64,000 nucleotides of DNA from Ostreococcus lucimarinus (lineage: Eukaryota). Position numbers and translations under genes: made by a program. The number at the start of each line of letters is the position of its first letter. Within the stretch, counting starts at the first letter, position 1. The stretch lies in NCBI GenBank assembly GCA_000092065.1, contig CP000592.1; one strand, given 5' to 3'. Shown here one piece after another: positions 7,260 to 49,674 of the stretch. The notes under the pieces are model-generated. The model made no database searches, was not told where the DNA came from, and saw only the letters and a program-made list of their open reading frames with translations.

Positions 7260-10200
7260 ATGCAGCCGCCGCCGATCGGGCCGCCGCCGATCGGCGCGCC
7301 GCGACGCGCGCCGCCGCCGATCGGCGCGCCGGGCGCGGACGCGGGCGCGCGCGACGCGCGTTCGACGCACGATTGGCGCGGCGCGCCGGGACGCGGGATG
7401 GATGGGCCGGACGCGCGCGCGGCGCGCGCGGGCGAACCGAACGGGCAAACGCACGCGGGCGGTCAGACGCACGTCGCGCCGGGCGCGGTCGCGGCGGACG
7501 CGCGCGCGGGCGCGGGACGGGGCGCGCCGGCGATGGGATCGAGCGGCGGATTCGACGGAGGCGGCGGATTCGCGAGCGCGAGCGCGCCGACGCCGGGGGC
7601 GCCGGGGACCGGGATCGCGCCGCCGGTGACGATGGGACGCGCGATGGGAGGGATGCACGCGCCGCCGGCGATGGGAGGGATGGCGGCGATGGCGCACGGA
7701 CAGGGGATGGTGCCGTCGACGGCGAGCGCGCCGCCGATTGGCGCGCCGCCGATCGGCGCGCCGCCGCAGTCGCCGCAGTATCCAACGCAGTATCCAACGC
7801 AGTATCCGCCGCAGTATCCGCCGCAGTCGCCGATGGGGATGGCACCGCAACCGCCGATGGGGGCGATGGCGCCGCCGCCGGTGCCAGGTCCGGGGATGCC
7901 CGCGATGGGAGGGTACCCGCAGGCGGGCGGTTACGGCGCGCCGGCGATGAACTTTGTGGAGGATTTCGCGTCTCTGAACCTCGGTCCGGGCGGTGGTCCC
8001 GGTGGGGAGGCTGGAATGGATCCCGCGACGTTTCCTCGACCGGGCGACGACGAAGCGCGTCCGAACTTGGAGCTTTCGTGCGATCCCAAGTACATGCGTC
8101 TGACGTGCGGGGCGCTGCCGTCGAGCCCGAGCTTGAAGACGAGGTTCGCCATGCCGCTGGGATGCATCGTCCAGCCGCTCAGACCTGGAGATGAGACGAC
8201 GGTGAAGACGGCGCATTTCGGGAGCTCGGGTATCGTGCGATGCCGCAGATGTCGAACTTACATAAACCCTTTCGTGCAATTCACAGACGGCGGGCGGCGA
8301 TTTAGGTGCAACGTGTGCGCGCTGCCCAACGAAGTGCCGGTGGATTACTTTTGCACGCTCGACGCGAACGGGGTGCGTCGAGACATCGCCGAGCGCCCTG
8401 AGTTGAACAGTGGAACGGTTGAATTTTTAGCGAGCCAAGAGTACATGGTGCGACCGCCGATGCCGCCGTCCTACTTCTTCGCCTTGGACGTGTCGCACAC
8501 GGCGGTGAATAGCGGCTTTTTGAAACAAACGGTGGAGGTGATTCGGGACTCCCTCGACGTCATGTCGAAGAAGAGCGAGCGCACGCGGGTCGGATTCTTG
8601 ACGTACGATTCGACGTTACACTTTTATAGCCTGAAGGCGAATCAGTCTCAGCCGCAAATGATGGTAGTCGCCGAGCTCGACGACCCGTTTTGTCCGATGC
8701 CAGACGACTTGCTGGTGAATCTCGCCGAGTCGCGCGCGGTGATTGATGCATTTTTAGACATGGTGTGCGATACGTACGCGCAGACGCAAAACATGGAAAG
8801 TGCCATGGGCCCGGCGATTCAAGCCGCGTTCTTAGCTATGTCTCACATCGGTGGTAAGCTTCTCGTGTTCCAATCCTGCCTGCCCACGCTCGGCGCGGGA
8901 CGCATGATCAACCGCGACGACACGCGAGCGAGCACGGATAGCACGAAGGAACACCTGCTTCGCGGCCCGGTCGATGGTTTCTTCAAGAAGACCTCGGCAG
9001 AGTGCTCACGACATCAGATTTGTATCGATTTGTACACCATCGCGGCGCCGTTCTCTGATTTGGCCTCCATGGCGGTGTTGTGCAAGTTCACCGGAGGCGA
9101 GTTGCGACATTACCCCGGTTTTACGCCGGACAAGGATGGGGTAAAGTACGCAAAGGAGCTGAAAAATAATCTCACGCGCTTCACCGCGTGGGAAGCCGTG
9201 TGTCGGGTGCGATGCAGTCGAGGATTTAGAATCTGCGCCTTCAACGGGCACTTCTTCATTCGATCGATGGACTTGCTCGCGCTCCCGGCGACGGATGGCG
9301 ACAAGGCGTACGGCGTGCACATCGCGCACGACGAAGTGGTTCCGAGCACGAACATTTCGTACTTGCAGTGTGCGCTACTGTACACCTCCGCAGAAGGAGA
9401 ACGCAGAATCCGAGTGCACACGATGGCGGTTCCGGTGGTGACAGACATAGCAGAGATGTACCGCGCCGTGGACTGCGGCGCCATGGGCGCGTTCATGGCG
9501 CGTTTGGGCGCCGAGCGCACGCTCACGGTGCGATTGCAAGATGCGCGCGAGGCGGTGATGACCAAGGTTGTCGCCACGTTGCGTGAGTTCAAGTTGCTCA
9601 ACACGCAAGCGTCGAGAGCGTTCAATAGGCTCATCTTCCCCGAGAGCATGAAGTTACTTCCGTTGTGGATCTTCGCCGCGAGCAAGAGCACGGCGATGCG
9701 AGGCGGCCCGCGAGACGTCCCCGTCGACGCGCGGATCGCCGCTGTGTACGACTTCATGTCTGCCTCGACGGAAGAAATCTTAAAGCTGCTGTATCCCACG
9801 ATGCACGCCTTGCACACGATGCCCGAGGAAGCGGGTACGAAGGACGAATACGGCAGAGTGATTTTGCCGCCGCGCACCGTCCTCGCGGGCGAGCGCATCG
9901 ACGCTCGCGGCGCCTACCTCGTCGACGACGGTCGTCGCCTGCTTTTATGGCTCGGAAAGATGCTCGACCCACAGTTCGTCGCCGCTTTGTTCGGCCCTAG
10001 CGGTCCTCCGAGCGCGGATGTGGACTGCAACCTCCCTCATCTGGACACCGACGTCTCGCGTCGCGCGCGCGCCGTCGTCGACGACATACGCGCCGAGGCG
10101 TCCCGCGCGCGTCATCTCGCCCTCACCGTCGTCATCCAAGGCCATCCGAGTGAGACGCAATTATTCCCTTACCTCATCGAAGATCGAGGCGCGGCCAACG

Positions 10201-10271
10201 TGCCCGGCGCGTCGTCCTACGGCGAGTTCCTAGTGCAGCTTCACAGGCAAGTCTCCGCCGCGCAGCGGTGA
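7260..10271 (+). CDS. SEC24: COPII coat protein Sec24
   Basis: Pro/Gln/Gly-rich N-terminus ([14 protein letters not shown]..., [11 protein letters not shown]). Sec24-type zinc finger [33 protein letters not shown]. Trunk, beta-barrel, helical and gelsolin-like regions are present. ATG at 7260. The upstream part of the track ORF (7101-7259) overlaps MIF on the other strand and is not coding. Confidence 0.9.
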   Translation: [1003 protein letters not shown]

Positions 10272-10351
10272 CCACGGACAAAGTCCGTGTGTTAAATACA
10301 ATCACACATCTTTCATACCATAAAAACAGACACATTGCGCACCGAGACTCG

Positions 10352-10359
10352 TATAATAA
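10352..10359 (+). promoter_or_regulatory. TATA-like element (TATAATAA) in the AT-rich core promoter of the RPL13a gene
   Basis: An AT-rich island (10290-10370) sits in an otherwise about 68% GC region. TATAATAA lies about 77 nt upstream of the proposed initiator ATG at 10436. Confidence 0.4.
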
Positions 10360-10435
10360 CATGGTCAAAAGTGCCAAAGACCTTCCGACGCCCGCGGCGC
10401 GATCCGTCTTTACGCGACGCCCTCGAACGCTCGCC

Positions 10436-11516
10436 ATGGACAAGGTACGGCGCGCGCCGAGCGCGTCGAAGCGCACGTCTTCATCGACATCGCGCGCGTT
10501 CGCGATCGACTCGATCGACGCGCGCGACGCGCGCGACATCGACGCGACGCCCCGCATCGCGTAGGGTTTCGCGATCGACCACGACGCCGACGCGCGAAGA
10601 CTGACGCCGACGCGCGCGCGACGCACCCGCAGGTTATCGTCATCGACGCCAAGGGACACCTTTTCGGGCGATTGGCCTCGATCGTCTCCAAGCAGTTGTT
10701 GCAAGGCCAGCACGTGGTGCGTATCGATTTCGGCGACGCGCGCGCGTTCGCGTTGGGCGCGCGATCATCGCGTCGCGCGCGCGCACCGTGGAGGCGACGG
10801 AGCGCGACGCGATGGCGAGCGATGGATATGGTGGTATTCATGCGATGATTCGCGCGCGCGTTGGACGTCGACAAGACGCAGATGAGGCGCGGGACGATGG
10901 GATGTCGGTCGCATCGGTGGTGGCGGATTAGGGCTTTGACGCGCGAGACGCGCGAACGACGAACGCGAAGACTGACGAAAGCACGCGCGATGGTTTGCGT
11001 AACGAATAGGTTGTGGTTCGCACCGAGGGTATCTGCATGTCCGGTGGTATGGTTCGTCGTCGCATGGCGCACGACCGCTACAAGAACAAGAGGATGAACA
11101 CGAACCCGAAGAAGGGTCCGTACCACTACACGTCGCCGTCTCGACTCTTCTGGAAGACGGTTCGCGGTATGCTTCCGCACAAGACTGTGCGTGGTGCGGC
11201 TGCTTTCGAACGCTTCAAGGCGTACGAAGGCATCCCGGCGCCGTACGACAAGGTTAAGCGCGCGGTCGTTCCGGAAGCGCTCAAGGTGTTGCGCCTCGGT
11301 GAGGGGCACCGTTTCTGCGTGCTCGGCGACTTCTGCGAACAAATCGGGTGGAAGCATGGTGCGATCGTGAAGGAGCTCGAGGCGAAGCGCCAAACTGCGG
11401 CGTCTGAGTACTGGGCGCAGAAGAAGGAGGCTAACTCCAAGTTTGCCGCGGCCAAGGCTGCGGCGAATGCGCAACTCGGCGATTTGCAACAGTTGATCGA
11501 AGCCACCGGGTATTAG
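10436..11516 (+). CDS. RPL13A: 60S ribosomal protein L13a (uL13), three exons
   Basis: Exon 1 at 10436-10444 (ATG GAC AAG, donor GTACGG). Intron 1 at 10445-10632 (ACTGAC at 10600-10605, acceptor CGCAG). Exon 2 at 10633-10716 ([28 protein letters not shown]). Intron 2 at 10717-11009 (donor GTGCGT, ACTGAC at 10970-10975, acceptor AATAG). Exon 3 at 11010-11516 (VVVRTEGICMSGG...RMNTNPKKGPYHYTSPSRLFWKTVRGMLPHKTVRG...). The spliced protein, [38 protein letters not shown]..., matches the eukaryotic uL13 N-terminus residue for residue, including the four consecutive Val. Confidence 0.85.
10445..10632 (+). other. RPL13a intron 1 (188 nt)
   Basis: GTACGG donor directly after ATGGACAAG. ACTGAC 25 nt before the CAG acceptor. 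Phase 0. Confidence 0.65.
10717..11009 (+). other. RPL13a intron 2 (293 nt)
   Basis: GTGCGT donor after ...CAC GTG. ACTGAC 32 nt before the ATAG acceptor. Joins HV to VVVRTEG in frame. Confidence 0.7.
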
Positions 11517-39327: not shown

Positions 39328-41028
39328 ATGTTCGCGACCGCGCGCGCGCCCGGCGCGGCGGCCGGCGCGGCGACGCGCGCGACGCGACGGGGAAATCAAC
39401 GCGAGGGCGCGACGACGCGCGCGGCGACGACGACGACGCGACGCGCGATGCGCGTGCGCGCGCGCGCGGCGTGCAAACTGACCACGTCCGTCATCGCGCC
39501 GAACCTGGAGCTCGCGCTGCGGGACGTGGACGACGCCGTGAGGAAGGGCGCGGACGTCGTGGAGCTCAGGGTGGATTTCTTGCGCGACGACGCGGCGCGC
39601 GGGACGCTGGGCGACGCGATCGAAGCGCTGATTAAAGCGTCGCCGGTGCCGGTGATCGTGACGAATCGACCGACTTGGGAGGGAGGGCAAGATGATGGGG
39701 ACGAGAGCGCGCGGTTGGAGGCGCTTTGGAGGGCGCACGAGTGCGGGGCGGCGTACGTGGATTGCGAGGCGCTCGCGGCGGAGCGATTCTTCGCGGCGAA
39801 ACCGGCGACGGCGACGCTGAGGAATGGGAAGACTAAGATCATTTTGAGCTCGCATAATTACGATGAGACGCCGAACGATGAGATTTTGGCGGAGATTCAC
39901 GCGAAGTGCGTGCGCTTGGGGGCGGATATCGTCAAGATGGCGTCGGTGTGTAACGCGGTGGAGGACGTGGCGCGATTGGAGAAGCTCTTGCGCACGAAGG
40001 GAAGGGAGATCGAGACGATCGTTTTGGGCATGAGCGAGCACGGACAAGTGTCTCGATTGCTCGCGGCGAAGTTTGGAAGCTTTTTGACGTTCGGGGCGAT
40101 TCGAAGAGGGGAAGAGAGCGCACCGGGGCAGCCGTTGCTCGAAGAGCTGCGAGATTTGTATCGCGTGCCGACGCAGACGGCGGCGACAAAGGTGATGGGC
40201 GTGATCGGGAACCCGATCGGACACAGTAAGTCACCGGCGTTACACAATCCTTGTCTCGCCGCCGCGGGCGTGGATGCGTGCTACGTCCCGTTACTCGTCA
40301 AGGATATCAAAACCTTTCTCGCGTCGCCGCTCTTCGGGTCGAAGGACTTTGTGGGGTTTAGCGTGACGATTCCGCATAAGGAAGACGCCTTGGAGTGCTG
40401 CGCCGAGGTCGACCCCGTGGCGAAGCAAATCGGCGCGGTGAACACGTTGGTTCGTCAACCGGATGGATCGTTAAAGGGTTACAACACCGATTATGTCGCC
40501 GCGATCGAGGCTATCGAAAACGCGATGGAGAAGAAAACGGGCGTCGCCGCCGCGAAGTCCTTGGCTGGGAAAACAGTCGTCGTCATCGGCGCCGGCGGTG
40601 CGGGCAAGGCTTTGGCGTTCGGCGCTAAGTTTAAGGGCGCCAACGTCGTCATCGCCAATCGCAGCGTCGAGCGCGCACAGGCGCTCGCTGACGCGTGCGG
40701 CGGCGTCGCGGTGTCGCTCGAAGATTTAGCGAGCGGTAGCGTCGTCGGCGACGTCTTGGCCAATAGCACCTCGGTCGGGATGCAACCGAACGTTGAAGAC
40801 ACGCCGACGCCAGCGTCTGTACTCGGAGGGTTTTCCGTCGTCTTCGACGCGGTGTACACCCCGCTCGAGACGCGGCTCTTGCGCGAAGCCAAGGCGAGTG
40901 GGTGCGAAATCGCGAGCGGGCTGGACATGTTCGTCGGGCAAGCGGCGAGGCAGTTCGAGCTCTTCACCGGGAAAGAGGCCGAGGTTGAGCTCATGCGCGA
41001 CGCCGTGTTGTCGAGCATAAAAAGGTAA
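39328..41028 (+). CDS. DHQ-SDH: Bifunctional 3-dehydroquinate dehydratase / shikimate 5-dehydrogenase (plant-type DHQ-SDH) with a plastid transit peptide
   Basis: Type I DHQase region (VVELRVDFL..., PVIVTNRPTWEGG..., IILSSHNY) followed by the SDH region (KVMGVIGNPIGHSKSPALHN...GAGGAGKALAFGA). 566 aa. ATG at 39328. Confidence 0.9.
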   Translation: MFATARAPGAAAGAATRATRRGNQREGATTRAATTTTRRAMRVRARAACKLTTSVIAPNLELALRDVDDAVRKGADVVELRVDFLRDDAARGTLGDAIEALIKASPVPVIVTNRPTWEGGQDDGDESARLEALWRAHECGAAYVDCEALAAERFFAAKPATATLRNGKTKIILSSHNYDETPNDEILAEIHAKCVRLGADIVKMASVCNAVEDVARLEKLLRTKGREIETIVLGMSEHGQVSRLLAAKFGSFLTFGAIRRGEESAPGQPLLEELRDLYRVPTQTAATKVMGVIGNPIGHSKSPALHNPCLAAAGVDACYVPLLVKDIKTFLASPLFGSKDFVGFSVTIPHKEDALECCAEVDPVAKQIGAVNTLVRQPDGSLKGYNTDYVAAIEAIENAMEKKTGVAAAKSLAGKTVVVIGAGGAGKALAFGAKFKGANVVIANRSVERAQALADACGGVAVSLEDLASGSVVGDVLANSTSVGMQPNVEDTPTPASVLGGFSVVFDAVYTPLETRLLREAKASGCEIASGLDMFVGQAARQFELFTGKEAEVELMRDAVLSSIKR

Positions 41029-42151: not shown

Positions 42152-43165
42152 ATGGCGACGGAAAAAGACGCCGAACGCGGCGACGGGACGCTCGCGAGGC
42201 GGTCGAGCCTGAGCGAGAGCTTCAGCGAGCACGATCGAGGGCAGATCGTGAATCACGCGGCGCTGTGGACGGCGCAGTTGATTTGGGCGCTCATGCACGT
42301 GCTGAGCCACGACGCGCTCGAGCACGTCGAGCCGACGGCGTTCTGCGCGCTCAGGCTCGCGCTGGCGCTGCCGTTTCTGGCGATATCGGCGAGGAAGGAG
42401 GGCGGGAGTCTGCCGTGGCGCGCGGTCGCGACGTGGGTGGTGCCGATGGGGGCGATGATCGGCGCGGCGTATCTGTTGGTCTTCGTGGCGAACGCGCGCT
42501 CGGGACCGACGCTCGTGGCGTGCGTGCAGCCGATCATGCCGGTGTCGGTGGCGGTGATGAGTTATGTGATAGGATTGGAGCGCATGACGCGCGTGAAGGC
42601 GCTGGGCGTGATCGTCGTTTTCGCGGGAACGGTCACCGCGCTGCGCGCGTACGAAATTTTTCAAACGGGCGGGATGAATTTTTTGGACATCTTTCTCTTG
42701 CTGTCGCAGACGAATTCGTACGCCGTCTACGTCGTGATGCTCGGCGTGGCGACGAAAACGTACCCGTATCCATTGCTGTTCTTATTCCTCGCCACCGCCG
42801 TGGCCGAGTTCGTCGTCTTGCTCATCGCGATTCCGGCGTTCGCCCGACTCGACGTCTCCCGCGTTCCCGCGTCCGCCTGGGGCGCCGTCGTCTTCGCGGG
42901 ATGGGGCTCGTCCGTCTTCGCCCACTCCCTGAATTCTTGGGCCGTCGCTCGCGTCAAGGGCGTCTTGCCCACCGTCTACTCCGGCGTCCAAGTCATCTTC
43001 ACCATCGTTCTCAGTCGCGTGTTCCTTCGCGAGCGTCTGCCGTGGGATCGAGGCGTCGGCATCGCCGTCACCATCCTCGGCGTCTGTTTAGTCGCGCGCG
43101 CCAAGTACGCCGAGACGCCCGACGCGACGCGTCGCGACGCGCCCTCGCGCTCGTGCGGCGCATAG
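42152..43165 (+). CDS. EamA-domain transporter (drug/metabolite transporter superfamily)
   Basis: Ten predicted TM helices with two EamA-like repeats (...ALRLALALPFLAISARKEG..., ...VFAGWGSSVFAHSLNSWAVARV...). ATG at 42152. Confidence 0.75.
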   Translation: MATEKDAERGDGTLARRSSLSESFSEHDRGQIVNHAALWTAQLIWALMHVLSHDALEHVEPTAFCALRLALALPFLAISARKEGGSLPWRAVATWVVPMGAMIGAAYLLVFVANARSGPTLVACVQPIMPVSVAVMSYVIGLERMTRVKALGVIVVFAGTVTALRAYEIFQTGGMNFLDIFLLLSQTNSYAVYVVMLGVATKTYPYPLLFLFLATAVAEFVVLLIAIPAFARLDVSRVPASAWGAVVFAGWGSSVFAHSLNSWAVARVKGVLPTVYSGVQVIFTIVLSRVFLRERLPWDRGVGIAVTILGVCLVARAKYAETPDATRRDAPSRSCGA

Positions 43166-43364: not shown

Positions 43365-45026
43365 ATGTCGCACGCCGCGCACCTCCGCCGCGCGCTCTCG
43401 CGCGCGCTCTCGCGCGCGAGCGCCGCGCGCGCGCCGCTCGGCCCGGTCGCGAACCCTGGAGCGACACCCGATCGCGCCGCCGCGCTGAAGCGCGACGCGC
43501 TCCGCGCCTACGCCACGGGCCCGGCGCGACACGAGAAACAAATCTCCGACGATCTGCTCGCGAAGCTCGGCGGGCTGTCCACGCAGGCGCTGATCGATGG
43601 ATTGTGGGTCATGGGATGGCCGACGAGCCACGTGATGGGCGCGCGACCGCTCACGGAGGGACAAAAGAAACTGGTCGGACGCGCGGTGACGCTTCGATTC
43701 GTGCCGCAGCGACCGGATATCGCGGCGAGTAAACCGGCGGGGATGGAATCGCCGGAATACGAGGCGTTTGAACAGACCGGGCCGAACGAGTGCGTGGTCA
43801 TGGAGAGCGTCGGGCCGTGGGAGAGCGTCGGCGGCGATATCAAGTTTTTACGATTGGCGCAGCTTAAATGCGCGGGATTAGTGACCGATGGAAGCGTGAG
43901 AGACACCGCGGTGTTGCGGGAGTACGGATTTCCGGTGTTTTCGATTTCGACGACGCCGAGACAAGGACCGCACGTGCACCAGCCGTGGGAGGCGAACGGC
44001 GTCATCACGTGCGGCGGCATCGTCGTGCGACCGGGCGACGCGATCATCGGCGATCAAGACGGCGTTGTCGTTATTCCAGCGTCTCACGCGCAGGAAGTGT
44101 ACGATATCGCGCACTCTCGAGAGATTGTCGAGGATATCGTGAAGACGGAGCTCGCGACAAATCCGGGTCCGCCGGGCAAATTTTATCCGTTTGTGAGCGG
44201 CAAGATCAAGAAGGACTCGCCGTTGTGCAAGTTGCTCGCGAGCAAGGGCTACGACTCGAGCAAGTTTGCGCACACCGCCGCGAACCCGGGCGCTCGCGCC
44301 GGTCTCGGTGGTATTCCGAAGAGCCGCAATACGCTCGGCGCGCGCAGATCGATGAGCCAACAAGTTCGTCACAAGTCGTACATGCGAACCGACGCCGAGT
44401 TCAACGAAGTGCTCGATCAGTTTGCCAAGCACAAGGCGTGTGCTGTCCTCCGCACGGGAGTCGAAGGTGCGGCGTACAACGCCATGGACGCCGCCGTCCA
44501 AGGCGGCTTCAAGCTCGTTGAATTCACCCTCACCACCCCAGGCTGCCTCGACGCGGTTTCCCGATTTGCCTCCCGCACCGACGTCTTGACCGGCTGCGGT
44601 ACTATTCTCAACATCGACGACGCCAAGAGAGCTTTGGACGCTGGGTCGAAATTTATCGTTGCTCCGATTTTGATTCCGGAAGTTGTCGAGTGGTGCGCGG
44701 CGAACAAAATCGTCTGCATCCCGGGCTGCCAAACCCCGAGCGAGTTGTACCGCGCGTACAGCCTCGGCGCCCCCGTGCAAAAGCTCTTCCCGGGTGTCGC
44801 CGGTGGCCCTAACTGGGTTCGCGCCGTCGCCTCGGCGCTTCCGATGCTTCGAATCAACCCGACGTCGGGCGTCGAAATCGACACCGCCGCCGACTACTTG
44901 CGTGCGGGCGCCGCCTCTCTCGGTTTCGTCGCCCCGGCGTTCGATCAAAACGCCATCAAGGCGGGTGATTGGGACGCCATCTCCAAGCGTGCGACTGAAA
45001 TTATTGCCGCCGTGAAGGCCGCGTAA
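43365..45026 (+). CDS. Fusion protein: N-terminal RraA-like/HMG-CHA-aldolase-like domain plus C-terminal KDPG/KHG aldolase (Eda-type), with a mitochondrial-type presequence
   Basis: N-terminal half: LIDGLWVMGWPTSHVMGARPL...GRAVTLRFVPQRPD...ECVVMESVG...GGDIKFLRLAQLKCAGLVTDGSVRDTAVLREYGFPVFS (RraA-like fold). C-terminal half: GAAYNAMDAAVQGGFKLVEFTLTTPGCLDAVSRFA..TGCGTILNIDDAKRALDAGSKFIVAPILIPEVVEWCAANKIVCIPGCQTPSELYRAYSLGAPVQKLFPG (KDPG/KHG aldolase). ATG at 43365 (MSHAAHLRRALSRALSRASAARAPLG). Confidence 0.8.
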   Translation: MSHAAHLRRALSRALSRASAARAPLGPVANPGATPDRAAALKRDALRAYATGPARHEKQISDDLLAKLGGLSTQALIDGLWVMGWPTSHVMGARPLTEGQKKLVGRAVTLRFVPQRPDIAASKPAGMESPEYEAFEQTGPNECVVMESVGPWESVGGDIKFLRLAQLKCAGLVTDGSVRDTAVLREYGFPVFSISTTPRQGPHVHQPWEANGVITCGGIVVRPGDAIIGDQDGVVVIPASHAQEVYDIAHSREIVEDIVKTELATNPGPPGKFYPFVSGKIKKDSPLCKLLASKGYDSSKFAHTAANPGARAGLGGIPKSRNTLGARRSMSQQVRHKSYMRTDAEFNEVLDQFAKHKACAVLRTGVEGAAYNAMDAAVQGGFKLVEFTLTTPGCLDAVSRFASRTDVLTGCGTILNIDDAKRALDAGSKFIVAPILIPEVVEWCAANKIVCIPGCQTPSELYRAYSLGAPVQKLFPGVAGGPNWVRAVASALPMLRINPTSGVEIDTAADYLRAGAASLGFVAPAFDQNAIKAGDWDAISKRATEIIAAVKAA

Positions 45027-45115: not shown

Positions 45116-47023
45116 TTACTTCCTACTCGAACACGAAAAAACCGTCGGTCGATAGTTCGGGACATACATGGTTGAATACACGTACTCGCTCATCGCTTCC
45201 TCGCCCTGCGCGACGATGTGACGAATGTCTTCCGGCACTCGACCCTCGCGCGCGGCGGCTTCGATGACCTTGATCGCAACGTACGCCGAGATATCGCGGA
45301 TGCGATCGATACGCGGAAAGATAGTGCCTTCTGTGTATTGTTCGGGCGTGAGCATAGCTGGGATAGCCATCGCGGCGGCTTGAAGCATCGCGTCGGAGAT
45401 GACAGACGATTTCGACAGCAACGCACCGAGACCAAGTCCGGGAAAGACGTAAAAGTTATTGCCCTGATTCGCCTTCATCACTCTGCCATTAATCTCGACA
45501 TCGCTGAACGGCGAACCAGATGAAAAGATAGCCCTTCCGTCAGTCGCGTTCGCGGCGTCCTCCGCCGTACATTCGGCACGAGACGTCGGATTTGAGAGCG
45601 GCATGATAATCGGGCGCTCGTTTATTTTACCCATTTCCTCAAGCACCTCCTTCGAAAATAGCCCCTTCACCGTGGAAACGCCGAGTAAAACCGTGGGTTT
45701 CGCCTTTTTAATCACGTCCATGAGCGACGCGCCCTCGGGCATGTCGTTTCGGTTGCGTGCGAAACCTTTCAGCGGCTCCTGTCCGGGATCGTCCAACGCG
45801 CGTTCGGCGGTGACCAGCCCGTTGGCGTCGATGATGTAAAATCTCTTGTATGCTTCCTCGGCCGTCAATCCATTCGCAACCATAGCTTGGTGTAGGAATG
45901 ATGCTATACCACATCCCGCGCTTCCAGCGCCGCACATGACGAAGGTTTGTTTGACAATATCCTTGCGATGACCATGAAGACACTTCATCGCTCCGTACAC
46001 GCCGGCTAGGACGACGGCCGCGGTGCCTTGGATATCATCGTTGAAGCACAGAACTTCATCGCGATAGTGCTGCAAAATTTTGTTCGCGTGCTTCGTTTGA
46101 AAGTCTTCGAACTGAATCAACGCGTTTGGCCACCGGTTTCGCACGCCGCGAATAAACTCCTCCACAAACGCGTAATACTCCTCACCTTCCAGTCGCTTGT
46201 GCGGCGACCCGAGATAATAGGGATCGTTCAAAAGATCTGGATTGTTCGTGCCAACGTCGAGGACGACTGGCAAAACATGCTGCGGATCAAAACCACCCCC
46301 GGCGACGTACAGGTCCAATTTCCCTTGCGAAATTCCCATACCATTCATGCCGAGATCGCCCAAACCCAAAATCCTCGACCCGTCGGTGACCACTATGACG
46401 GAGACGTTCCGTTTCCAGTTGAACATCATCGAGTTAAAATCGCCCCTATCCTCGCGCGAAAAGTACATCCCTCTCGCCCGGCGCAATAACTTTGAATATT
46501 CAAGGCACGCGTCTCCGACCGTCGGCGTGTAAATCACCGGCGCTAATTCCTCGATGTGATCGTGCACCAGGCGATAAAACAACGTCTCGTTACGATCCTT
46601 CAAATCTTGAAGGTGACTCCACCGATCCAGCGGACGCTTCAGCGCTTTATTTTGCGCCCATATCTTCACCGCTTGCTGTCCGATCGTGAAGAACCGCGGC
46701 GGCACGAGCCCGCGAATGCCCAATCGTTCGCGTTCGCTCGCGCTGAACCCGGTGCCTTTATTGTATATGGGATTGTGGAGCACCTCGATGCCGCGCGACG
46801 TGTCGGGATGCATCACCACCACGTCGTCCACCGCGCGCCTGTGACTGTTCGTCCCGATGGGTTCGATCATGCTCGACGCTCGCGAGCGCTCGTCGTCGTC
46901 GAGCAGCGCGCCGACGGCGTTCGACGACGCGGTGGTCGTTGCCGCGTCGCGCGCGAAAATCGACGCGGTGCCGCGCGCGGTGGACGCGAGCGCGCGCGAG
47001 CGCGCGACGGACGCGGAGAGCAT
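45116..47023 (-). CDS. ME: NAD(P)-dependent malic enzyme with an organellar presequence
   Basis: ...NPIYNKGTGFSASERERLGIRGLVPP..., VVTDGSRILGLGDLGMNGMGISQGKLDLY..., FNDDIQGTAAVVLAG... show whole-length malic enzyme similarity. The proposed start is ATG at 47023 (MLSASVARSRALASTARG...). About 635 aa. Confidence 0.85.
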   Translation of the reverse strand: MLSASVARSRALASTARGTASIFARDAATTTASSNAVGALLDDDERSRASSMIEPIGTNSHRRAVDDVVVMHPDTSRGIEVLHNPIYNKGTGFSASERERLGIRGLVPPRFFTIGQQAVKIWAQNKALKRPLDRWSHLQDLKDRNETLFYRLVHDHIEELAPVIYTPTVGDACLEYSKLLRRARGMYFSREDRGDFNSMMFNWKRNVSVIVVTDGSRILGLGDLGMNGMGISQGKLDLYVAGGGFDPQHVLPVVLDVGTNNPDLLNDPYYLGSPHKRLEGEEYYAFVEEFIRGVRNRWPNALIQFEDFQTKHANKILQHYRDEVLCFNDDIQGTAAVVLAGVYGAMKCLHGHRKDIVKQTFVMCGAGSAGCGIASFLHQAMVANGLTAEEAYKRFYIIDANGLVTAERALDDPGQEPLKGFARNRNDMPEGASLMDVIKKAKPTVLLGVSTVKGLFSKEVLEEMGKINERPIIMPLSNPTSRAECTAEDAANATDGRAIFSSGSPFSDVEINGRVMKANQGNNFYVFPGLGLGALLSKSSVISDAMLQAAAMAIPAMLTPEQYTEGTIFPRIDRIRDISAYVAIKVIEAAAREGRVPEDIRHIVAQGEEAMSEYVYSTMYVPNYRPTVFSCSSRK

Positions 47024-47190
47024 CGCACGTCGCGTCGGTCGCGTCGACTGGATCCGCGCGGGAGCGCGGCGTCGACGTGTGGCGTCGCGATTTGGGTTTA
47101 TCTGCTTTCCCGGCGACGGGGACGGGACGGGACGGGACGCGACGAACGCGACGGAATGTAGACTATCGATTGAAACGATTATGGCTAAGG

Positions 47191-49674
47191 CTATTGCTTC
47201 AATCGAGCCTTGATTTCGTCGGTGTCGCCGTACCAGTGCTCGAAGACGCCGATGGCGTGATGGATGACGTCGAGACGGCGGCGAAGGTCGGCGGCGCGCG
47301 CGGCGGCGCGATCGAGCGGGGGACATCGGGCGTCGGCTCGCGCCTCAGCGCGGCCGCGCCTACGGAAGACGAAGGCGACGCTCATGCGTGGTGGATCTGG
47401 GCTGTCGATTTCACACGCGCTGCCCCAGTGGATGATGTTTCCTGACCATGCGAGGAGGGCGCCGGCGTCGACGGGGGCGAGGGGCTTGGCGGCGCCGCGA
47501 GGCACCTCGGGGGCGGATTTTGAAACGTCACTTCGCCCACCATCTTCGTCGTCTTTCTTCGACACGACGTACATGCACCCACTTGTTTCCGTGACGCGGT
47601 TCAACGGGAGCCAAAGGCTGAGGACTTGCGTTTTACCATCTTCGTCGACGGCGTCCGAGAGGGAGTAGTCGCGATGCGGAACGCCAAAGTTGTTACCGAT
47701 GTAACGCTTCCCAGATGCGTCTTTTTCGAGCTTGAACGCGGCAACGGATGGTTCTAACACGCACTCACCGCCAAGTAGGACCTCCGCGTGCGCGAATAGC
47801 AAGTCGATGACACGCCAGGCAACGTCGGAAACGAATATGCACGCCGGCGGCCACTTGGCGTCGACGAGCGCCTCGATGCCGCTGCGGAGCGCGTTGGTAT
47901 CCTTAATCGGCACGATAACATCGCCCCACACGTAGCCGTTCTCTTGTAGCGACGCCACGTGCTCTTGCGTTGCGCTAGCGTCGATTTCACTCACGGTCGC
48001 ATCGCTGTTGCTTGACACCGCGCAGCCGTGCGTGCTTAAAATGGCGTTCCAGTAGGTTGCGTCGAAAACGTTCGTCGAAATTGCCTTTCCCGGAGCTGCA
48101 TCTTCGCCCTCGTCTCCGAACGCGTCCCATGCCGAGTTCTTGTCATCGATCGCTGGTAAATTTCGTACGTCCTCGTCCTCGTCGTTGGCGGCGTAATCGA
48201 GCACAGTAAAGTGCCCGTGTGTATCGACATCAGCGATGCGATAAGGAAATCGAGCGGCGTCGGCGCCAAGCTTTTCTCGCAGTCGCGCGTGCCAGTGCTC
48301 GGGATGAAAACTTTCAACATTCTTCGACGGGTCGAACCAAGTGCATACGATATCGCGTTCTCTCACATCGCTCGTTGCGCTCGTCCTCGTACGCTTTTCT
48401 GGCCGACTTTCCACGTCCTCAAAAGTGACGTCGGCGGGATCTCGCAGCAAGTGCGCATTGTCGCCCAGCGCCTCCAAAGCGGATCCATTCATGCCCGATA
48501 ACGCCAAAACACCGGTATCGGCGTTGATAAGCGTTCGTACACGCAGTACGATCGTCTCATCGTCGCCTTGTGGCCAAGATCCTACGATGGCGTCGTACTT
48601 GGCGCCGCTCGCGCGTTCGAGAAAATCTAAAAAGTCTTCGCTCCAAACTCTAATCTCCCCGCGAGCGCCTGCATCGCTCGCGTGCACCTTTTTATCACAT
48701 CGCGTGCACTCCAAACCAAAATATTTCACCATCAAGTCCACGACCGTGCCATCTTGTTCGACGACGTCGACGCGCGTCTCCGGTGAGTACGTGCGCATGA
48801 ACGACGCCACGGCGGCGCCTCCGGCGCATCCCAGCGCCAACACCCTTCGCACTGGACCGTCCCCCGGCGATGCCATCGCCACCGCGACGTACGTCGCATC
48901 TCTCCACGAATCTAACGCCAATCCGAGCGGTTCGTTCGGGTCCTTTTCCGCCTCGACTGCACCGTCGCTCCCTCTCCACGGGCCGCGCACGAGCGCTCTC
49001 GTGCATTCGCCCCCGGACCCATCCTCCACCGCCATATCGATCACACTCAGCGCCTCAAGCCCACTGTCTTCCGCTCTTTCCACGTGCTCAATGACTTCTA
49101 CGCTCCACGTCAACTTCCCAGTGCGCGCGTCGACCCCCAACGGCGTCACCAACGTCAACGTCTCGATCAACAACGCAAACGTCCAACGCTCCTCCGCGTC
49201 CAATTCATCCTGTGCTCTCAACGTCGGCGTCGTCGCGCTCGCCATCCCGCTCGACGAATCCACGAAAATCGGTTGTCCGGTGCTCTCGTCGAGCTCCACC
49301 TGATACCCCTCGTTCTCGAGCAATCCATTCGCGACGCCGCCGAGTTCGCTCAAAACCAACAGCGCGCCGTCGCTCGCCGCGAGCGCGTCCGCGTCCGCGC
49401 TCTCCACCGGTGCCCCCGTCGCGCTGTCGCGCTCGACCGCTTGCACGGACCTCAACAAAGGCACGACGCACCCCGACGCGCACAGCGCGAGCGCCCAAGC
49501 GGCGCCGTGACCCTCGTCGCCGATGCGCAGCTCGAGCAGTGATTCCGCGGCGGCGGCGCGTTCGCGCGACGATGGCGACGACAAACGGGCGACAAACGAG
49601 CGCAGACTCGCGGTAGAGTCGACCGACGGCGATGCGCGCGCGGTGTCGCGCGCGTCGTCGCGCGGGCGAGGCAT
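47191..49674 (-). CDS. Multidomain protein: central class I SAM-methyltransferase/spermidine-synthase-like domain plus C-terminal PhyH-like Fe(II)/2OG dioxygenase domain
   Basis: MTase-like: RVLALGCAGGAAVASFMRTYSPETRVDVVEQDGTVVDLMVKYFG. PhyH-like: ...NNFGVPHRDYSLSDAVDEDGKTQVLSLWLPLNRVTETSGCMYVVSKKDD...ALLAWSGNIIHWGS (HxD...H). 827 aa. ATG at 49674. Its 3' end overlaps the 5' region of the malic enzyme track ORF. Confidence 0.5.
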   Translation of the reverse strand: MPRPRDDARDTARASPSVDSTASLRSFVARLSSPSSRERAAAAESLLELRIGDEGHGAAWALALCASGCVVPLLRSVQAVERDSATGAPVESADADALAASDGALLVLSELGGVANGLLENEGYQVELDESTGQPIFVDSSSGMASATTPTLRAQDELDAEERWTFALLIETLTLVTPLGVDARTGKLTWSVEVIEHVERAEDSGLEALSVIDMAVEDGSGGECTRALVRGPWRGSDGAVEAEKDPNEPLGLALDSWRDATYVAVAMASPGDGPVRRVLALGCAGGAAVASFMRTYSPETRVDVVEQDGTVVDLMVKYFGLECTRCDKKVHASDAGARGEIRVWSEDFLDFLERASGAKYDAIVGSWPQGDDETIVLRVRTLINADTGVLALSGMNGSALEALGDNAHLLRDPADVTFEDVESRPEKRTRTSATSDVRERDIVCTWFDPSKNVESFHPEHWHARLREKLGADAARFPYRIADVDTHGHFTVLDYAANDEDEDVRNLPAIDDKNSAWDAFGDEGEDAAPGKAISTNVFDATYWNAILSTHGCAVSSNSDATVSEIDASATQEHVASLQENGYVWGDVIVPIKDTNALRSGIEALVDAKWPPACIFVSDVAWRVIDLLFAHAEVLLGGECVLEPSVAAFKLEKDASGKRYIGNNFGVPHRDYSLSDAVDEDGKTQVLSLWLPLNRVTETSGCMYVVSKKDDEDGGRSDVSKSAPEVPRGAAKPLAPVDAGALLAWSGNIIHWGSACEIDSPDPPRMSVAFVFRRRGRAEARADARCPPLDRAAARAADLRRRLDVIHHAIGVFEHWYGDTDEIKARLKQ

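What the first reader, a model, noticed from the sequence alone, without database searches (positions are those of the whole stretch)
43365..45026. Single polypeptide fusing an RraA-like (HMG/CHA-aldolase-like) domain to a KDPG/KHG aldolase domain
Both halves belong to pyruvate-specific aldolase/oxaloacetate-decarboxylase lineages. The RraA-like fold gives 4-hydroxy-4-methyl-2-oxoglutarate/4-carboxy-4-hydroxy-2-oxoadipate aldolase. The Eda fold gives KDPG/4-hydroxy-2-oxoglutarate aldolase. These are normally separate bacterial proteins. Here they form one 553-aa ORF behind a mitochondrial-type presequence, with no stop or frame change between the domains. This looks like a Rosetta-stone style link hinting at a hydroxy-oxoglutarate or hydroxyproline/glyoxylate-type pathway in the organelle.
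Basis: partly seen in the sequence, partly recalled or inferred. Interest (0 to 1): 0.55.

Follow-up and report, generated by a model that had tools for sequence, protein, structure and literature searches.

The report
Two pyruvate aldolases, one mitochondrial precursor
A picoalga (Ostreococcus) gene really does join two different pyruvate-releasing aldolases in one protein, but the joint looks like a leftover mitochondrial import signal, so the protein is probably imported and then cut into two enzymes rather than working as one fused enzyme.

Summary
Window 43365-45026 (+) is one uninterrupted 553-aa ORF with an RraA-like domain (PF03737) and a KDPG/KHG-aldolase domain (PF01081). Both keep their catalytic residues. 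The fusion is not unique and is already auto-annotated elsewhere. It is conserved (50-93% identity) in Ostreococcus, Micromonas, Bathycoccus, Prasinoderma, Tetraselmis and a Pavlovales haptophyte, and full-length transcripts exist. None of the 150 best hits of an exhaustive search is a bacterial fusion. No paper describing it was found.

New here: the 40-90-aa linker is disordered, basic and almost acid-free. It carries an R-x-[FYLM]-[AS] motif in 39 of 44 family linkers (8.5 expected), the same motif that ends the N-terminal presequence. A sister family fuses the same RraA-like domain to a quinone-reductase (MDR) domain. Its linker is homologous to the N-terminal presequence of the stand-alone MDR ortholog, which in Pavlovales lies head-to-head with the RraA-Eda gene.

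Best reading: an Arg5,6-type composite mitochondrial precursor, probably cut by the processing peptidase. The Eda half has an altered phosphate pocket, so KDPG is unlikely to be its substrate. The true substrate (4-hydroxy-2-oxoglutarate or oxaloacetate are plausible) remains unproven. Moderate interest.

The parts
43365..45026 (+). Complete CDS (553 aa plus stop) of the composite precursor
   Evidence: ORF list. The identical protein is called as one gene on contigs from more than 200 index blocks of public assemblies; the five places shown are marine metagenome contigs.
43365..43511 (+). N-terminal presequence, aa 1-49, ending in R47-A48-Y49|A50 (an R-3 type processing motif)
   Evidence: Composition and amphipathic moment. 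pLDDT is below 50 for aa 1-57. The motif R-x-[FYLM]-[AST] lies directly before the conserved xGPA start in 60 of 67 unique family N-termini.
43512..44159 (+). RraA-like (class II pyruvate aldolase / oxaloacetate decarboxylase type) core, aa 50-265. Catalytic G157-D158, R179-D180 and E256 are invariant in the family.
   Evidence: Pfam PF03737. Alignment to 3noj places D102, R123, D124 and E199 on D158, R179, D180 and E256. These are invariant in alignment A5. Residue roles come from PMC5065237. Fold match.
44160..44252 (+). Conserved C-terminal tail of the RraA-like module (NPGPPGKFYPF...SPLCKLLASKG-Y), aa 266-296
   Evidence: Nearly invariant columns P269-G295. The PGxYYPF part is also present in bacterial relatives such as P0189.
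44253..44390 (+). Inter-domain linker, aa 297-342: disordered, basic, acid-poor. Read as the retained presequence of the downstream enzyme.
   Evidence: pLDDT is below 50 for aa 304-336. Family linkers have 15.9% Arg+Lys and 1.1% Asp+Glu, against 10.1% and 10.3% in the rest of the protein. In the sister family the linker is homologous to the N-terminus of the stand-alone Pavlovales MDR.
44343..44357 (+). Candidate internal processing-peptidase site, R327-R328-S329-M330-S331
   Evidence: R-x-[FYLM]-[AS] is present in 39 of 44 unique family linkers against 8.5 expected from shuffles. The last motif's Arg lies 11-23 residues before the linker end as the script defines it, i.e. about 11-23 residues before the start of the Eda fold; in the window R328 precedes the first Eda helix (aa 343) by about 15 residues. 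Cleavage itself is inferred, not shown.
44391..45023 (+). Eda-type class I (Schiff-base) aldolase domain, aa 343-553. Catalytic R363, E386, T413, K473 and F475. Altered phosphate pocket T500-S501-G502 and V522-A523.
   Evidence: Pfam PF01081. Alignment to E. coli Eda, whose sequence was verified as identical to 1eua_A. The definition of the phosphate site comes from PMC3962226. TMt 0.93 to 1vlw.

Best explanation
This is a nuclear gene of Ostreococcus (O. lucimarinus or a near-identical strain). It encodes a composite mitochondrial precursor with four parts: (i) a cleavable N-terminal presequence; (ii) an RraA-like, metal-dependent class II pyruvate aldolase/oxaloacetate decarboxylase; (iii) a disordered linker that is the retained presequence of the downstream enzyme; (iv) an Eda-type class I (Lys Schiff-base) pyruvate aldolase.

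After import, the mitochondrial processing peptidase most likely cuts at both R-x-[FYLM]-[AS] sites and releases two separate enzymes in equal amounts, as in yeast Arg5,6. Both enzymes release pyruvate from 4-hydroxy-2-oxo acids or from oxaloacetate. The Eda half has lost two of the three phosphate-pocket residues, so it probably acts on a non-phosphorylated substrate such as 4-hydroxy-2-oxoglutarate or oxaloacetate, not on KDPG. The pair belongs to a conserved algal module with a zeta-crystallin-type NAD(P)H reductase.

Shown: the single ORF, both domains and their catalytic residues, conservation of the fusion, linker composition and motif enrichment, and homology between linker and presequence in the sister family.
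Inferred: mitochondrial location, cleavage, and substrate.
My sub-confidences: architecture 0.95, mitochondrial 0.75, internal cleavage 0.5, non-phosphorylated substrate 0.5, a specific substrate below 0.3.
For: Architecture.

Catalytic competence of both halves:
- D158, R179, D180 and E256 correspond to HMG/CHA aldolase D102, R123, D124 and E199 (roles).
- E386, T413, K473 and F475 correspond to E. coli Eda E45, T73, K133 and F135, and R363 to the T. maritima-type Arg17.
- All are invariant across 23 orthologs.

Single transcript and conservation: about 50 full-length orthologs, including complete MMETSP transcripts. No intron lies at the junction in the intron-containing Pavlovales gene.

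Presequence.

Linker as internal presequence:
- It is disordered.
- It has 1.1% acidic against 15.9% basic residues.
- The motif occurs in 39 of 44 linkers against 8.5 expected, placed about 11-23 residues upstream of the Eda fold.
- In the sister RraA-like+MDR family the motif occurs in 18 of 18 linkers against 3.4 expected, usually exactly 9 aa before the MDR Met.
- The stand-alone Pavlovales MDR starts MAGIMSRGALRLAGSVRAFSAVPKTMRAAVV. This aligns with fused linkers such as ...GRGRRAMSTVPATMRAAVV.
- A stand-alone Eda of the same subtype has its own presequence (P0185).
- Diatom-like stand-alone RraA-like proteins lack the basic linker.

Precedent: the processing peptidase cuts Arg5,6 and Atp25 at internal R-2 sites (RSY/RGY) inside presequence-like segments at the junction (PMC8734313).

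Against KDPG as substrate:
[quoted passage not shown] The window has S501, G502 and A523, with V522 in place of G183. This signature is shared by all close relatives, while TGG/GS occurs only in relatives at 38% identity or below, which include the verified E. coli enzyme.
- A 2024 survey reported EDD absent from eukaryotes (PMC10847513).
- Bacterial members of this Eda subtype are not next to kinase or dehydratase genes.
- A cyanobacterial EDA also decarboxylates oxaloacetate and cleaves KHG.

Three-way module: the Pavlovales RraA-Eda gene lies 251 bp head-to-head with an MDR gene that is 70-78% identical to the fused MDR domains.
Against: - No experiment shows localisation or cleavage, and no TargetP or MitoFates run was possible.
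- Part of the motif enrichment could reflect shared ancestry, although the rest of the linker is hypervariable.
- In green algae, chloroplast and mitochondrial targeting peptides are hard to tell apart by eye.
- A Ser at position 162 could still hydrogen-bond a phosphate, so loss of KDPG activity is not proven.
- The closest solved N-domain relative, RraAS2 (5x15), was described as an RNase inhibitor, not an enzyme.
- Prokaryotic neighbourhoods give no independent support for an RraA-like/Eda functional link.
- Both folds are normally trimers (my own knowledge). A stable fusion would therefore be sterically possible and cleavage is not required.
Confidence: 0.5

Rival explanations
1. It is a stable bifunctional enzyme. 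The linker is only a flexible tether and the mature protein keeps both domains, for instance a trimer of fusions. That would allow channelling, or complementary stereochemistry on the two enantiomers of a 4-hydroxy-2-oxo acid.
For: The fusion is conserved across green algae and a haptophyte. Both domains are catalytically intact. The linker is long and disordered, which suits a tether. Both parent folds are homotrimers (my own knowledge; the T. maritima trimer is the scaffold of many designed cages listed).
Against: A mere tether need not stay acid-free or keep an R-x-[FYLM]-[AS] motif at a fixed distance from the downstream domain while the rest of it varies freely. In the sister family the linker is demonstrably the partner's presequence. 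Stand-alone versions of both halves exist in other eukaryotes. The structure model shows no confident inter-domain packing (pTM 0.48).
Confidence: 0.33
2. The database names are right. The C-half would be the Entner-Doudoroff KDPG aldolase of a glycolytic ED route. The N-half would be an RraA-type RNase regulator or a 'demethylmenaquinone methyltransferase'.
For: JGI and NCBI automated names. T. maritima KDPG aldolase is the best PDB sequence match. RraAS2, described as an RNase inhibitor, is the best N-domain match.
Against: Scores fall below the NCBIfam cut-offs for eda (136 against 156) and far below those for RraA (32 against 136). The phosphate pocket is altered. A 2024 survey reported EDD absent from eukaryotes. 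The aldolase catalytic Arg and metal ligands are all present in the N-half. The methyltransferase name is a historical misannotation of this fold (my own knowledge).
Confidence: 0.05
3. These are two separate genes or products in Ostreococcus, as the O. lucimarinus public model suggests (214-aa Eda only). They could arise from an internal promoter, an internal start at M330 or M340, or an unrecognised intron.
For: XP_001420689.1 covers only aa 340-553. Met residues occur at 330 and 340.
Against: The ORF is continuous. Metagenome gene callers and the M. pusilla annotation give full-length proteins. A complete MMETSP transcript encodes the M. pusilla fusion. The linker stays in frame and is conserved in orthologs. 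The internal Met is not conserved outside the prasinophyte members. A product starting at M340 would lack any targeting signal.
Confidence: 0.04
4. The precursor goes to the chloroplast rather than the mitochondrion, and the linker is cut, if at all, by the stromal peptidase.
For: Green-algal transit peptides are also Ala/Arg/Ser-rich. Soybean EDA is plastid-localised (PMC10847513).
Against: The R-x-[FYL]|[AS] motif is the classical mitochondrial R-3/R-2 pattern (and my own knowledge). Haptophyte and cryptophyte orthologs have the same short basic N-termini, and by eye I see no hydrophobic signal peptide of the kind complex plastids require; no signal-peptide predictor was run.
Confidence: 0.08

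Closest known systems
Yeast Arg5,6 (also Atp25, Rsm22-Cox11, rice RPS14-SDHB): composite mitochondrial precursors cut internally by the processing peptidase (PMC8734313, PMC5063612)
   Same: One ORF holds an N-terminal presequence and two complete enzymes. The junction is a presequence-like, basic segment carrying an Arg(-2/-3) plus aromatic/hydrophobic motif. Stand-alone versions of the halves exist in other lineages.
   Different: The enzymes and the taxa (marine algae) are different. Cleavage is not demonstrated here. The N-terminal module pairs with two alternative downstream partners, Eda or QOR. The bacterial homologs are not operon neighbours, whereas Arg5,6 mirrors the bacterial argCB operon.
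[quoted passage not shown]
   Same: Same fold (TMt 0.75). The essential Arg-123 and the ligands Asp-124 and Glu-199, plus Gly101-Asp102, are all conserved.
   Different: Sequence similarity is distant (E about 1e-11, below every NCBIfam equivalog cut-off). The domain belongs to the longer RraAS2/PRK08245-type subfamily with a PGxYYPF tail. Its nearest relatives are SAR202 Chloroflexota genes of unknown function. There is no aromatic-degradation context.
Streptomyces coelicolor RraAS2 (5X15) and Flavobacterium FlDet (an RraA-like KDGR dehydratase/decarboxylase, PMC8563752)
   Same: RraAS2 is the closest solved structure (E 8e-25, TMt 0.88). This is the same long RraA-like subfamily, which includes enzymes acting on 2-keto-3-deoxy acids.
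   Different: RraAS2 was described as an RNase ES inhibitor. FlDet is only about 26% identical to RraAS2 and its sequence was not compared here. Neither protein is fused or organelle-targeted.
Eda: KDPG/KHG aldolases of E. coli (1EUA) and Thermotoga maritima (1WA3)
   Same: TIM-barrel fold (TMt 0.93). The Schiff-base Lys, the Glu general base, Thr73, Phe135 and the T. maritima-type Arg are conserved.
   Different: The phosphoryl pocket G162/G163/S184 reads S/G/A, with Val at position 183. The score is just below the TIGR01182 cut-off. There is no ED-pathway context. The domain is fused and organelle-targeted.
Other RraA-like fusions in NCBIfam: PRK12764 (FAH + RraA-like) and PRK07028 (hexulose-6-phosphate synthase + RraA-like)
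   Same: An RraA-like domain is joined to a second carbon-carbon lyase or decarboxylase-type enzyme.
   Different: In those prokaryotic fusions the RraA-like domain matches the C-terminal part of the model and there is no targeting signal or presequence-like linker. Here it is N-terminal and followed by a presequence-like linker.

Membership tests
RraA-like / HMG-CHA-type class II pyruvate aldolase (PF03737) | Significant match to the family profile | tested here: met
   PF03737, 100 bits against a gathering score of 24.5, aa 90-236.
RraA-like / HMG-CHA-type class II pyruvate aldolase (PF03737) | [quoted passage not shown] | tested here: met
   Foldseek TMt 0.88 to 5x15 and 0.75 to 3noj. Domain pLDDT is mostly 70-90.
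RraA-like / HMG-CHA-type class II pyruvate aldolase (PF03737) | Essential Arg-123 (enolate stabilisation) and metal ligands Asp-124 and Glu-199 (PMC5065237) | tested here: met
   R179, D180 and E256, plus G157-D158 matching G101-D102, align to these residues. They are invariant in 23 orthologs.
RraA-like / HMG-CHA-type class II pyruvate aldolase (PF03737) | Orthology to CHA aldolase LigK/PcmE (NCBIfam equivalog cut-off) | tested here: not met
   TIGR02798 scores 59 against 304.5 and NF006731 scores 64 against 179. It works like this family but is not that enzyme.
RraA-like / HMG-CHA-type class II pyruvate aldolase (PF03737) | Mg2+-dependent aldol cleavage or oxaloacetate decarboxylation | not testable with these tools
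   Needs an enzyme assay.
RraA, regulator of RNase E | Match to the RraA equivalog model | tested here: not met
   NF006875 scores 32 against 136 and TIGR01935 scores 29 against 124.
KDPG/KHG aldolase, class I (PF01081, Eda) | Profile match and TIM-barrel fold | tested here: met
   PF01081 scores 115 bits against 27.8. TMt 0.93 to 1vlw.
KDPG/KHG aldolase, class I (PF01081, Eda) | Schiff-base Lys133, Glu45, Thr73 and Phe135 (E. coli numbering) | tested here: met
   K473, E386, T413 and F475 are invariant. The E. coli sequence used for numbering is identical to 1eua_A.
KDPG/KHG aldolase, class I (PF01081, Eda) | Phosphoryl-binding pocket G162/G163/S184 (PMC3962226), which defines KDPG specificity | tested here: not met
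   The window has S501, G502 and A523, with V522 in place of G183. This signature is conserved in all close relatives. TGG/GS occurs only in relatives at 38% identity or below.
KDPG/KHG aldolase, class I (PF01081, Eda) | NCBIfam 'eda' subfamily cut-off | tested here: not met
   TIGR01182 scores 136.1 against 156.05, a narrow miss.
KDPG/KHG aldolase, class I (PF01081, Eda) | Entner-Doudoroff context (EDD dehydratase or KDG kinase partner) | tested here: inconclusive
   Neither gene type appears among the recurrent neighbour clusters of 63 bacterial subtype loci. The literature reports no EDD in eukaryotes. The rest of this genome could not be searched.
Composite mitochondrial precursor processed internally by MPP (Arg5,6 type) | N-terminal matrix-targeting presequence | tested here: met
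   Sequence level only: basic, acid-poor, amphipathic and disordered, with R-x-[FYLM]-[AST] in 60 of 67 family N-termini.
Composite mitochondrial precursor processed internally by MPP (Arg5,6 type) | Presequence-like segment with an R-2/R-3 motif exactly at the junction of two complete enzymes | tested here: met
   39 of 44 linkers against 8.5 expected, and 18 of 18 against 3.4 in the sister family. The linker is homologous to the presequence of the stand-alone MDR.
Composite mitochondrial precursor processed internally by MPP (Arg5,6 type) | Demonstrated cleavage into two polypeptides inside mitochondria | not testable with these tools
   Needs import assays or N-terminal proteomics.

The most novel reading that the evidence does not exclude
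Marine algae (prasinophytes, haptophytes, cryptophytes) may carry a previously undescribed three-enzyme mitochondrial module. It would consist of an RraA-like class II aldolase/decarboxylase whose nearest prokaryotic relatives are SAR202-type Chloroflexota, an Eda-type class I aldolase re-tooled for a non-phosphorylated substrate, and a zeta-crystallin-type reductase. The enzymes would be delivered as interchangeable polyprotein precursors whose joints are retained presequences cut by the processing peptidase. That would add a new, widespread set of internally processed mitochondrial polyproteins. It would also assign a role to the 'orphan' eukaryotic Eda-type aldolase, for example cleavage of 4-hydroxy-2-oxoglutarate from hydroxyproline or control of the oxaloacetate/pyruvate node.
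Probability: 0.25. Interest if true: 0.7.

Novelty: new member of a known kind. Interest (0 to 1): 0.5.

Why it matters
- It corrects the public O. lucimarinus gene model, which covers only the C-terminal 214 aa. It also flags misleading automated names ('Entner-Doudoroff aldolase', 'demethylmenaquinone methyltransferase').
- It offers a testable new example, outside fungi and plants, of internally processed mitochondrial polyproteins. The evolutionary trail is unusually clear: the linker of the fused form is homologous to the presequence of the stand-alone ortholog.
- It links three orphan enzymes of abundant ocean picophytoplankton into one candidate module.
- It bears on a current question: what do Eda-type aldolases do in phototrophs that lack the ED pathway?

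Tried and rejected
- Prokaryotic gene-neighbourhood support for the Rosetta-stone link. I fetched 80 genome loci around the closest bacterial RraA-like genes, almost all Dehalococcoidia/SAR202. None has an Eda-type gene within 10 kb, and an MDR gene is adjacent in only one, L041. I also fetched 80 metagenome loci around bacterial Eda-subtype genes. None has an RraA-like or MDR gene. The link is therefore eukaryote-specific.
- Inferring the substrate from bacterial context. The neighbours are heterogeneous. For RraA-like genes they include a PanE/ApbA reductase (7 loci in the closest subgroup), SDR, DAO oxidoreductase, MR/MLE dehydratase, amidase and OpuAC. For Eda-subtype genes they include an MBL hydrolase, an AMP ligase, and MaoC plus HpcH/HpaI. 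No single pathway emerges.
- An unrecognised intron or stop in 44050-44350: rejected.
- A bacterial or distant two-domain ancestor: none is present among the 150 best hits listed from the exhaustive search; the remaining hits were not inspected.
- An MDR ortholog inside this window: none.
- Literature describing this fusion: none found. The primary HMG/CHA aldolase structure paper (PMC2978589) is not held, so residue roles were taken from PMC5065237.
- My first attempt at a degenerate-pattern scan used too divergent an alignment (A2) and failed.
Full report
**1. Observation**

Pfam places an RraA-like domain (PF03737) at aa 90-236 (E 1.8e-28). It places a KDPG/KHG aldolase domain (PF01081) at aa 354-541 (E 4.9e-33). 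Both score far above their gathering thresholds.

Searches of solved structures agree.
- By sequence, the C-half matches Thermotoga maritima KDPG aldolase (E about 1e-30). The N-half matches S. coelicolor RraAS2, 5x15 (E 8e-25), and HMG/CHA aldolase, 3noj (E 4e-12).
- By fold, an AlphaFold2 model gives a TM-score normalised to the target (TMt) of 0.93 to 1vlw, 0.88 to 5x15 and 0.75 to 3noj.

**2. Source organism and gene model**

The C-terminal 214 aa are identical to Ostreococcus lucimarinus CCE9901 XP_001420689.1. The window is therefore that species or a near-identical strain.

That public model contains only the Eda half, so it is truncated.

The exact 553-aa protein is called as one gene on contigs from more than 200 index blocks of public assemblies. 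The five places shown are marine metagenome contigs, and in all of them the order is DHQase-shikimate dehydrogenase, RING finger, EamA transporter, the fusion, then a convergent malic enzyme.

**3. Is the fusion genuine, and how widespread is it?**

About 50 full-length proteins share the two-domain architecture at 50-93% identity. They come from:
- other Ostreococcus clades;
- Micromonas pusilla CCMP1545 (XP_003055404.1, named 'demethylmenaquinone methyltransferase/aldolase');
- Bathycoccus;
- Prasinoderma coloniale;
- Tetraselmis striata;
- the haptophyte Pavlovales sp. CCMP2436.

Complete MMETSP transcripts encode the full fusion (P0027, and the M. pusilla transcript). This answers the 'single transcript' question for relatives.

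The linker stays in frame and is conserved at protein level among Ostreococcus-clade orthologs, including one in-frame 2-aa indel. Codon-position GC across the window's linker is coding-like but not decisive. In the intron-containing Pavlovales gene no intron lies at the junction.

An exhaustive HMMER search of 1.84 billion representatives gave 13,236 hits. Of the 150 best that were listed, only one is a full-length two-domain protein, the algal family's own representative. None is a bacterial or distant fusion.

So the architecture is eukaryote-specific. It is already in databases under automated names, and no paper describing it was found.

**4. Catalytic competence**

N-half. HMG/CHA aldolase needs Arg-123 for enolate stabilisation and uses Asp-124 and Glu-199 as metal ligands (PMC5065237). 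The HMMER alignment to 3noj places these residues, plus Gly101-Asp102, on window R179, D180, E256 and G157-D158. All are invariant in 23 orthologs.

The domain fails every NCBIfam equivalog cut-off, both for CHA aldolase and for RraA. Its best match is the uncharacterised PRK08245 type. It therefore works like a class II pyruvate aldolase or oxaloacetate decarboxylase, but it is neither LigK nor RraA.

C-half. E. coli Eda numbering was used, with a sequence verified as identical to 1eua_A. Glu45, Thr73, the Schiff-base Lys133 and Phe135 correspond to E386, T413, K473 and F475, all invariant. The T. maritima-type Arg17 corresponds to R363.

The phosphoryl pocket is different. It is defined as G162/G163/S184, with T161 bridging to the pyruvate site (PMC3962226). 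The window reads T500-S501-G502 and V522-A523.

Across about 80 Eda-type representatives this signature tracks relatedness. All complete eukaryotic relatives, and most bacterial ones at 39% identity or above, have T-[S/N/A]-G with Val at 183 and no Ser at 184 (one bacterial exception, P0209, reads V-S). The canonical TGG/GS occurs only at 38% identity or below, a group that includes the verified E. coli enzyme.

Three further points argue against KDPG as the physiological substrate:
- A 2024 survey reported that eukaryotes lack the EDD dehydratase (PMC10847513).
- Bacterial genes of this subtype are not next to kinase or dehydratase genes.

Non-phosphorylated substrates are therefore plausible. 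This step is inference.

**5. The N-terminus**

Residues 1-49 contain 8 Arg, 1 Lys, 15 Ala, 2 Asp and 0 Glu. They also hold the protein's strongest amphipathic 11-mer, RALSRALSRAS, and are modelled as disordered.

They end in R47-A48-Y49|A50, directly before the conserved 'ATGPA' start of the mature domain. Across the whole RraA-like family, 60 of 67 unique N-termini carry R-x-[FYLM]-[AST] at exactly this position.

This is the classical R-3/R-2 pattern recognised by the mitochondrial processing peptidase and Icp55 (and my own knowledge).

The haptophyte and cryptophyte orthologs have the same short basic N-termini. By eye I see no hydrophobic signal peptide of the kind a complex plastid would require; no signal-peptide predictor was run. 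Mitochondrial targeting is well supported at sequence level but not demonstrated.

**6. The linker, which is the main new point**

A conserved tail follows the RraA-like core (NPGPPGKFYPF...SPLCKLLASKG, aa 266-296). Its PGxYYPF part also occurs in bacterial relatives.

After the tail comes a hypervariable segment of 35-85 aa. In the window it spans aa 297-342 and has pLDDT of about 25-40.

Across 44 unique family linkers:
- basic residues make up 15.9% and acidic residues 1.1%, against 10.1% and 10.3% in the rest of the proteins;
- R-x-[FYLM]-[AS] occurs in 39 of 44, against 8.5 expected from composition-preserving shuffles;
- the last motif's Arg lies 11-23 residues before the script-defined linker end, i.e. 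about 11-23 residues before the start of the Eda fold.

In the window the motif is R328-S329-M330-S331. It precedes the first Eda helix (aa 343) by about 15 residues. The N-terminal site (A50) precedes the first RraA-domain helix (aa 62) by a similar 12 residues.

A sister family fuses the same RraA-like module to a zeta-crystallin/QOR-type MDR reductase. It occurs in the cryptophyte Hemiselmis, in haptophytes and in others. The closest solved relatives of the MDR domain are M. tuberculosis Qor, yeast Zta1, E. coli QOR and 2-haloacrylate reductase.

Its linkers show the same properties: 16.1% basic, 0.7% acidic, and the motif in 18 of 18 against 3.4 expected. In 15 of them the motif lies exactly 9 residues before the MDR Met.

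The decisive comparison comes from Pavlovales. Its stand-alone MDR ortholog is 70-78% identical to the fused MDR domains. It begins MAGIMSRGALRLAGSVRAFSAVPKTMRAAVV. This aligns with the C-terminal part of the fused linkers, for example ...GRGRRAMSTVPATMRAAVV and ...LQRRHMSSVPATMKAAVI.

The linker is therefore the retained presequence of the downstream enzyme, cleavage motif included.

Two further observations fit this reading. A stand-alone Eda of the same subtype carries its own N-terminal presequence (P0185). Diatom-like stand-alone RraA-like proteins end without any basic linker.

This anatomy matches the few known composite mitochondrial precursors. In yeast Arg5,6 and Atp25 the processing peptidase cuts at internal R-2 sites (RSY/RGY) inside a presequence-like segment at the junction (PMC8734313; PMC5063612).

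**7. Functional association**

In Pavlovales the RraA-like-Eda gene lies head-to-head, 251 bp apart, with the stand-alone MDR ortholog.

RraA-like, Eda-type and QOR-type enzymes are thus linked in three ways: two alternative fusions and one shared divergent promoter region.

In a neighbour-joining tree without support values, all eukaryotic RraA-like domains form one clade. Within it they group by lineage rather than by partner, which suggests partner exchange.

Prokaryotic gene order does not mirror the link.
- The closest bacterial RraA-like genes are almost all SAR202/Dehalococcoidia. They are up to 68% identical to the window domain (Ca. Lucifugimonas marina and relatives). No Eda-type gene lies within 10 kb in any of the 80 loci.
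- In the closest subgroup a PanE/ApbA 2-oxoacid reductase sits directly upstream. Elsewhere the neighbours are heterogeneous.
- The 80 bacterial Eda-subtype loci contain no RraA-like gene.

The malic-enzyme neighbour is conserved between Ostreococcus and Micromonas-like contigs. Gene order is broadly conserved among these algae (my own knowledge), so this says little.

**8. Mechanism proposed**

The precursor is imported into the mitochondrial matrix by its N-terminal presequence. The processing peptidase removes that presequence and cuts at the internal site. This releases equal amounts of a metal-dependent class II aldolase/decarboxylase and a Schiff-base class I aldolase.

Both enzymes yield pyruvate from 4-hydroxy-2-oxo acids or from oxaloacetate. 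The most plausible substrates are 4-hydroxy-2-oxoglutarate, possibly with complementary stereochemistry between the two enzymes, and oxaloacetate.

The QOR partner may reduce an unsaturated 2-oxo acid or an aldehyde product. That idea is speculation.

My sub-confidences are: architecture 0.95, mitochondrial targeting 0.75, internal cleavage 0.5, non-phosphorylated substrate 0.5, and any specific substrate below 0.3.

The main rival is a stable bifunctional enzyme on a flexible tether (0.33). Its support is that both parent folds are trimers, so a fusion is sterically feasible. Against it stand the selective maintenance of presequence features and the lack of confident inter-domain packing (pTM 0.48).

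**9. Novelty and verdict**

Both domains are known families. The fusion is already in databases under automated and partly misleading names.

The new elements are:
- recognising that the joint is a retained presequence with a conserved processing motif;
- the sister QOR fusion and the three-way module;
- the altered phosphate pocket of the Eda half;
- the affinity of the RraA-like half to SAR202 genes;
- the truncated O. lucimarinus gene model.

I file it as a new member of a known kind, namely composite mitochondrial precursors made of known aldolase families. Interest is 0.5.

Noticed in passing
window 44382-45026 (aa 340-553): The public O. lucimarinus CCE9901 model XP_001420689.1 (214 aa, 'predicted protein') is identical to the Eda half only. 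The RraA-like half, the presequence and the linker are missing, so that gene model appears truncated.
   Followed up: yes
P0057, P0062-P0118, P0186, P0194 (proteins): A sister architecture exists in cryptophytes, haptophytes and other eukaryotes. The same RraA-like module is fused to a zeta-crystallin/QOR-type MDR reductase through the same kind of basic, acid-free linker, which ends in '...RRHMSS(V/T)PATMKA'.
   Followed up: yes
L168:3509-4749 (-) and L168:5001-7187 (+) (Pavlovales sp. CCMP2436, MU631394.1): The stand-alone QOR/MDR ortholog (70-78% identical to the fused MDR domains) lies head-to-head, 251 bp apart, with the RraA-like-Eda fusion gene. Its N-terminal presequence is homologous to the linker of the fused forms.
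   Followed up: yes
L042-L051 (SAR202/Dehalococcoidia, including Ca. Lucifugimonas marina JH545), central gene at about 10001-10700: The algal RraA-like domain is 60-68% identical to one marine SAR202 subgroup, unusually close for a eukaryote-bacterium pair. In an NJ tree without support values all eukaryotic copies form one clade sister to a SAR202/Rokubacteria clade. The direction and timing of any transfer were not resolved.
   Followed up: partly
L043:9022-9933 (+), and the same position in L046-L049 and L051: In that SAR202 subgroup a PanE/ApbA-family 2-oxoacid (ketopantoate) reductase lies directly upstream on the same strand as the RraA-like gene (7 loci). This pairs an NADPH reductase with the RraA-like enzyme, which recalls the algal reductase fusion although the reductase family differs.
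   Followed up: partly
window 45116-47326 (-): A malic enzyme gene converges on the fusion gene. The arrangement is conserved in Micromonas-like contigs (L166, L167). The mechanical ORF is 736 aa but gene callers give 584-635 aa, so the true start and any targeting peptide are unsettled.
   Followed up: partly
window 39328-41028 (+), 41108-~41930 (-), 42152-43165 (+): The upstream neighbours are a bifunctional dehydroquinase-shikimate dehydrogenase, a RING-finger protein and an EamA-family transporter. The DHQ-SDH and RING genes are also conserved upstream in Micromonas-like contigs.
   Followed up: no
L104, L113 and two further metagenome loci (Eda-subtype context): In four bacterial loci the Eda-subtype gene follows a MaoC/mesaconyl-CoA-hydratase-like gene and an HpcH/HpaI (citramalyl/malyl-CoA-lyase-like) gene. 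This hints at C4-C5 dicarboxylate or glyoxylate metabolism rather than sugar-acid catabolism.
   Followed up: no
window 43365-43529 (aa 1-55): The presequence-coding stretch is extremely GC-rich (GC1/2/3 = 0.82/0.71/0.91) compared with the rest of the gene (about 0.62/0.47/0.75). Window GC also swings between 0.55 and 0.71 in 2-kb bins.
   Followed up: no
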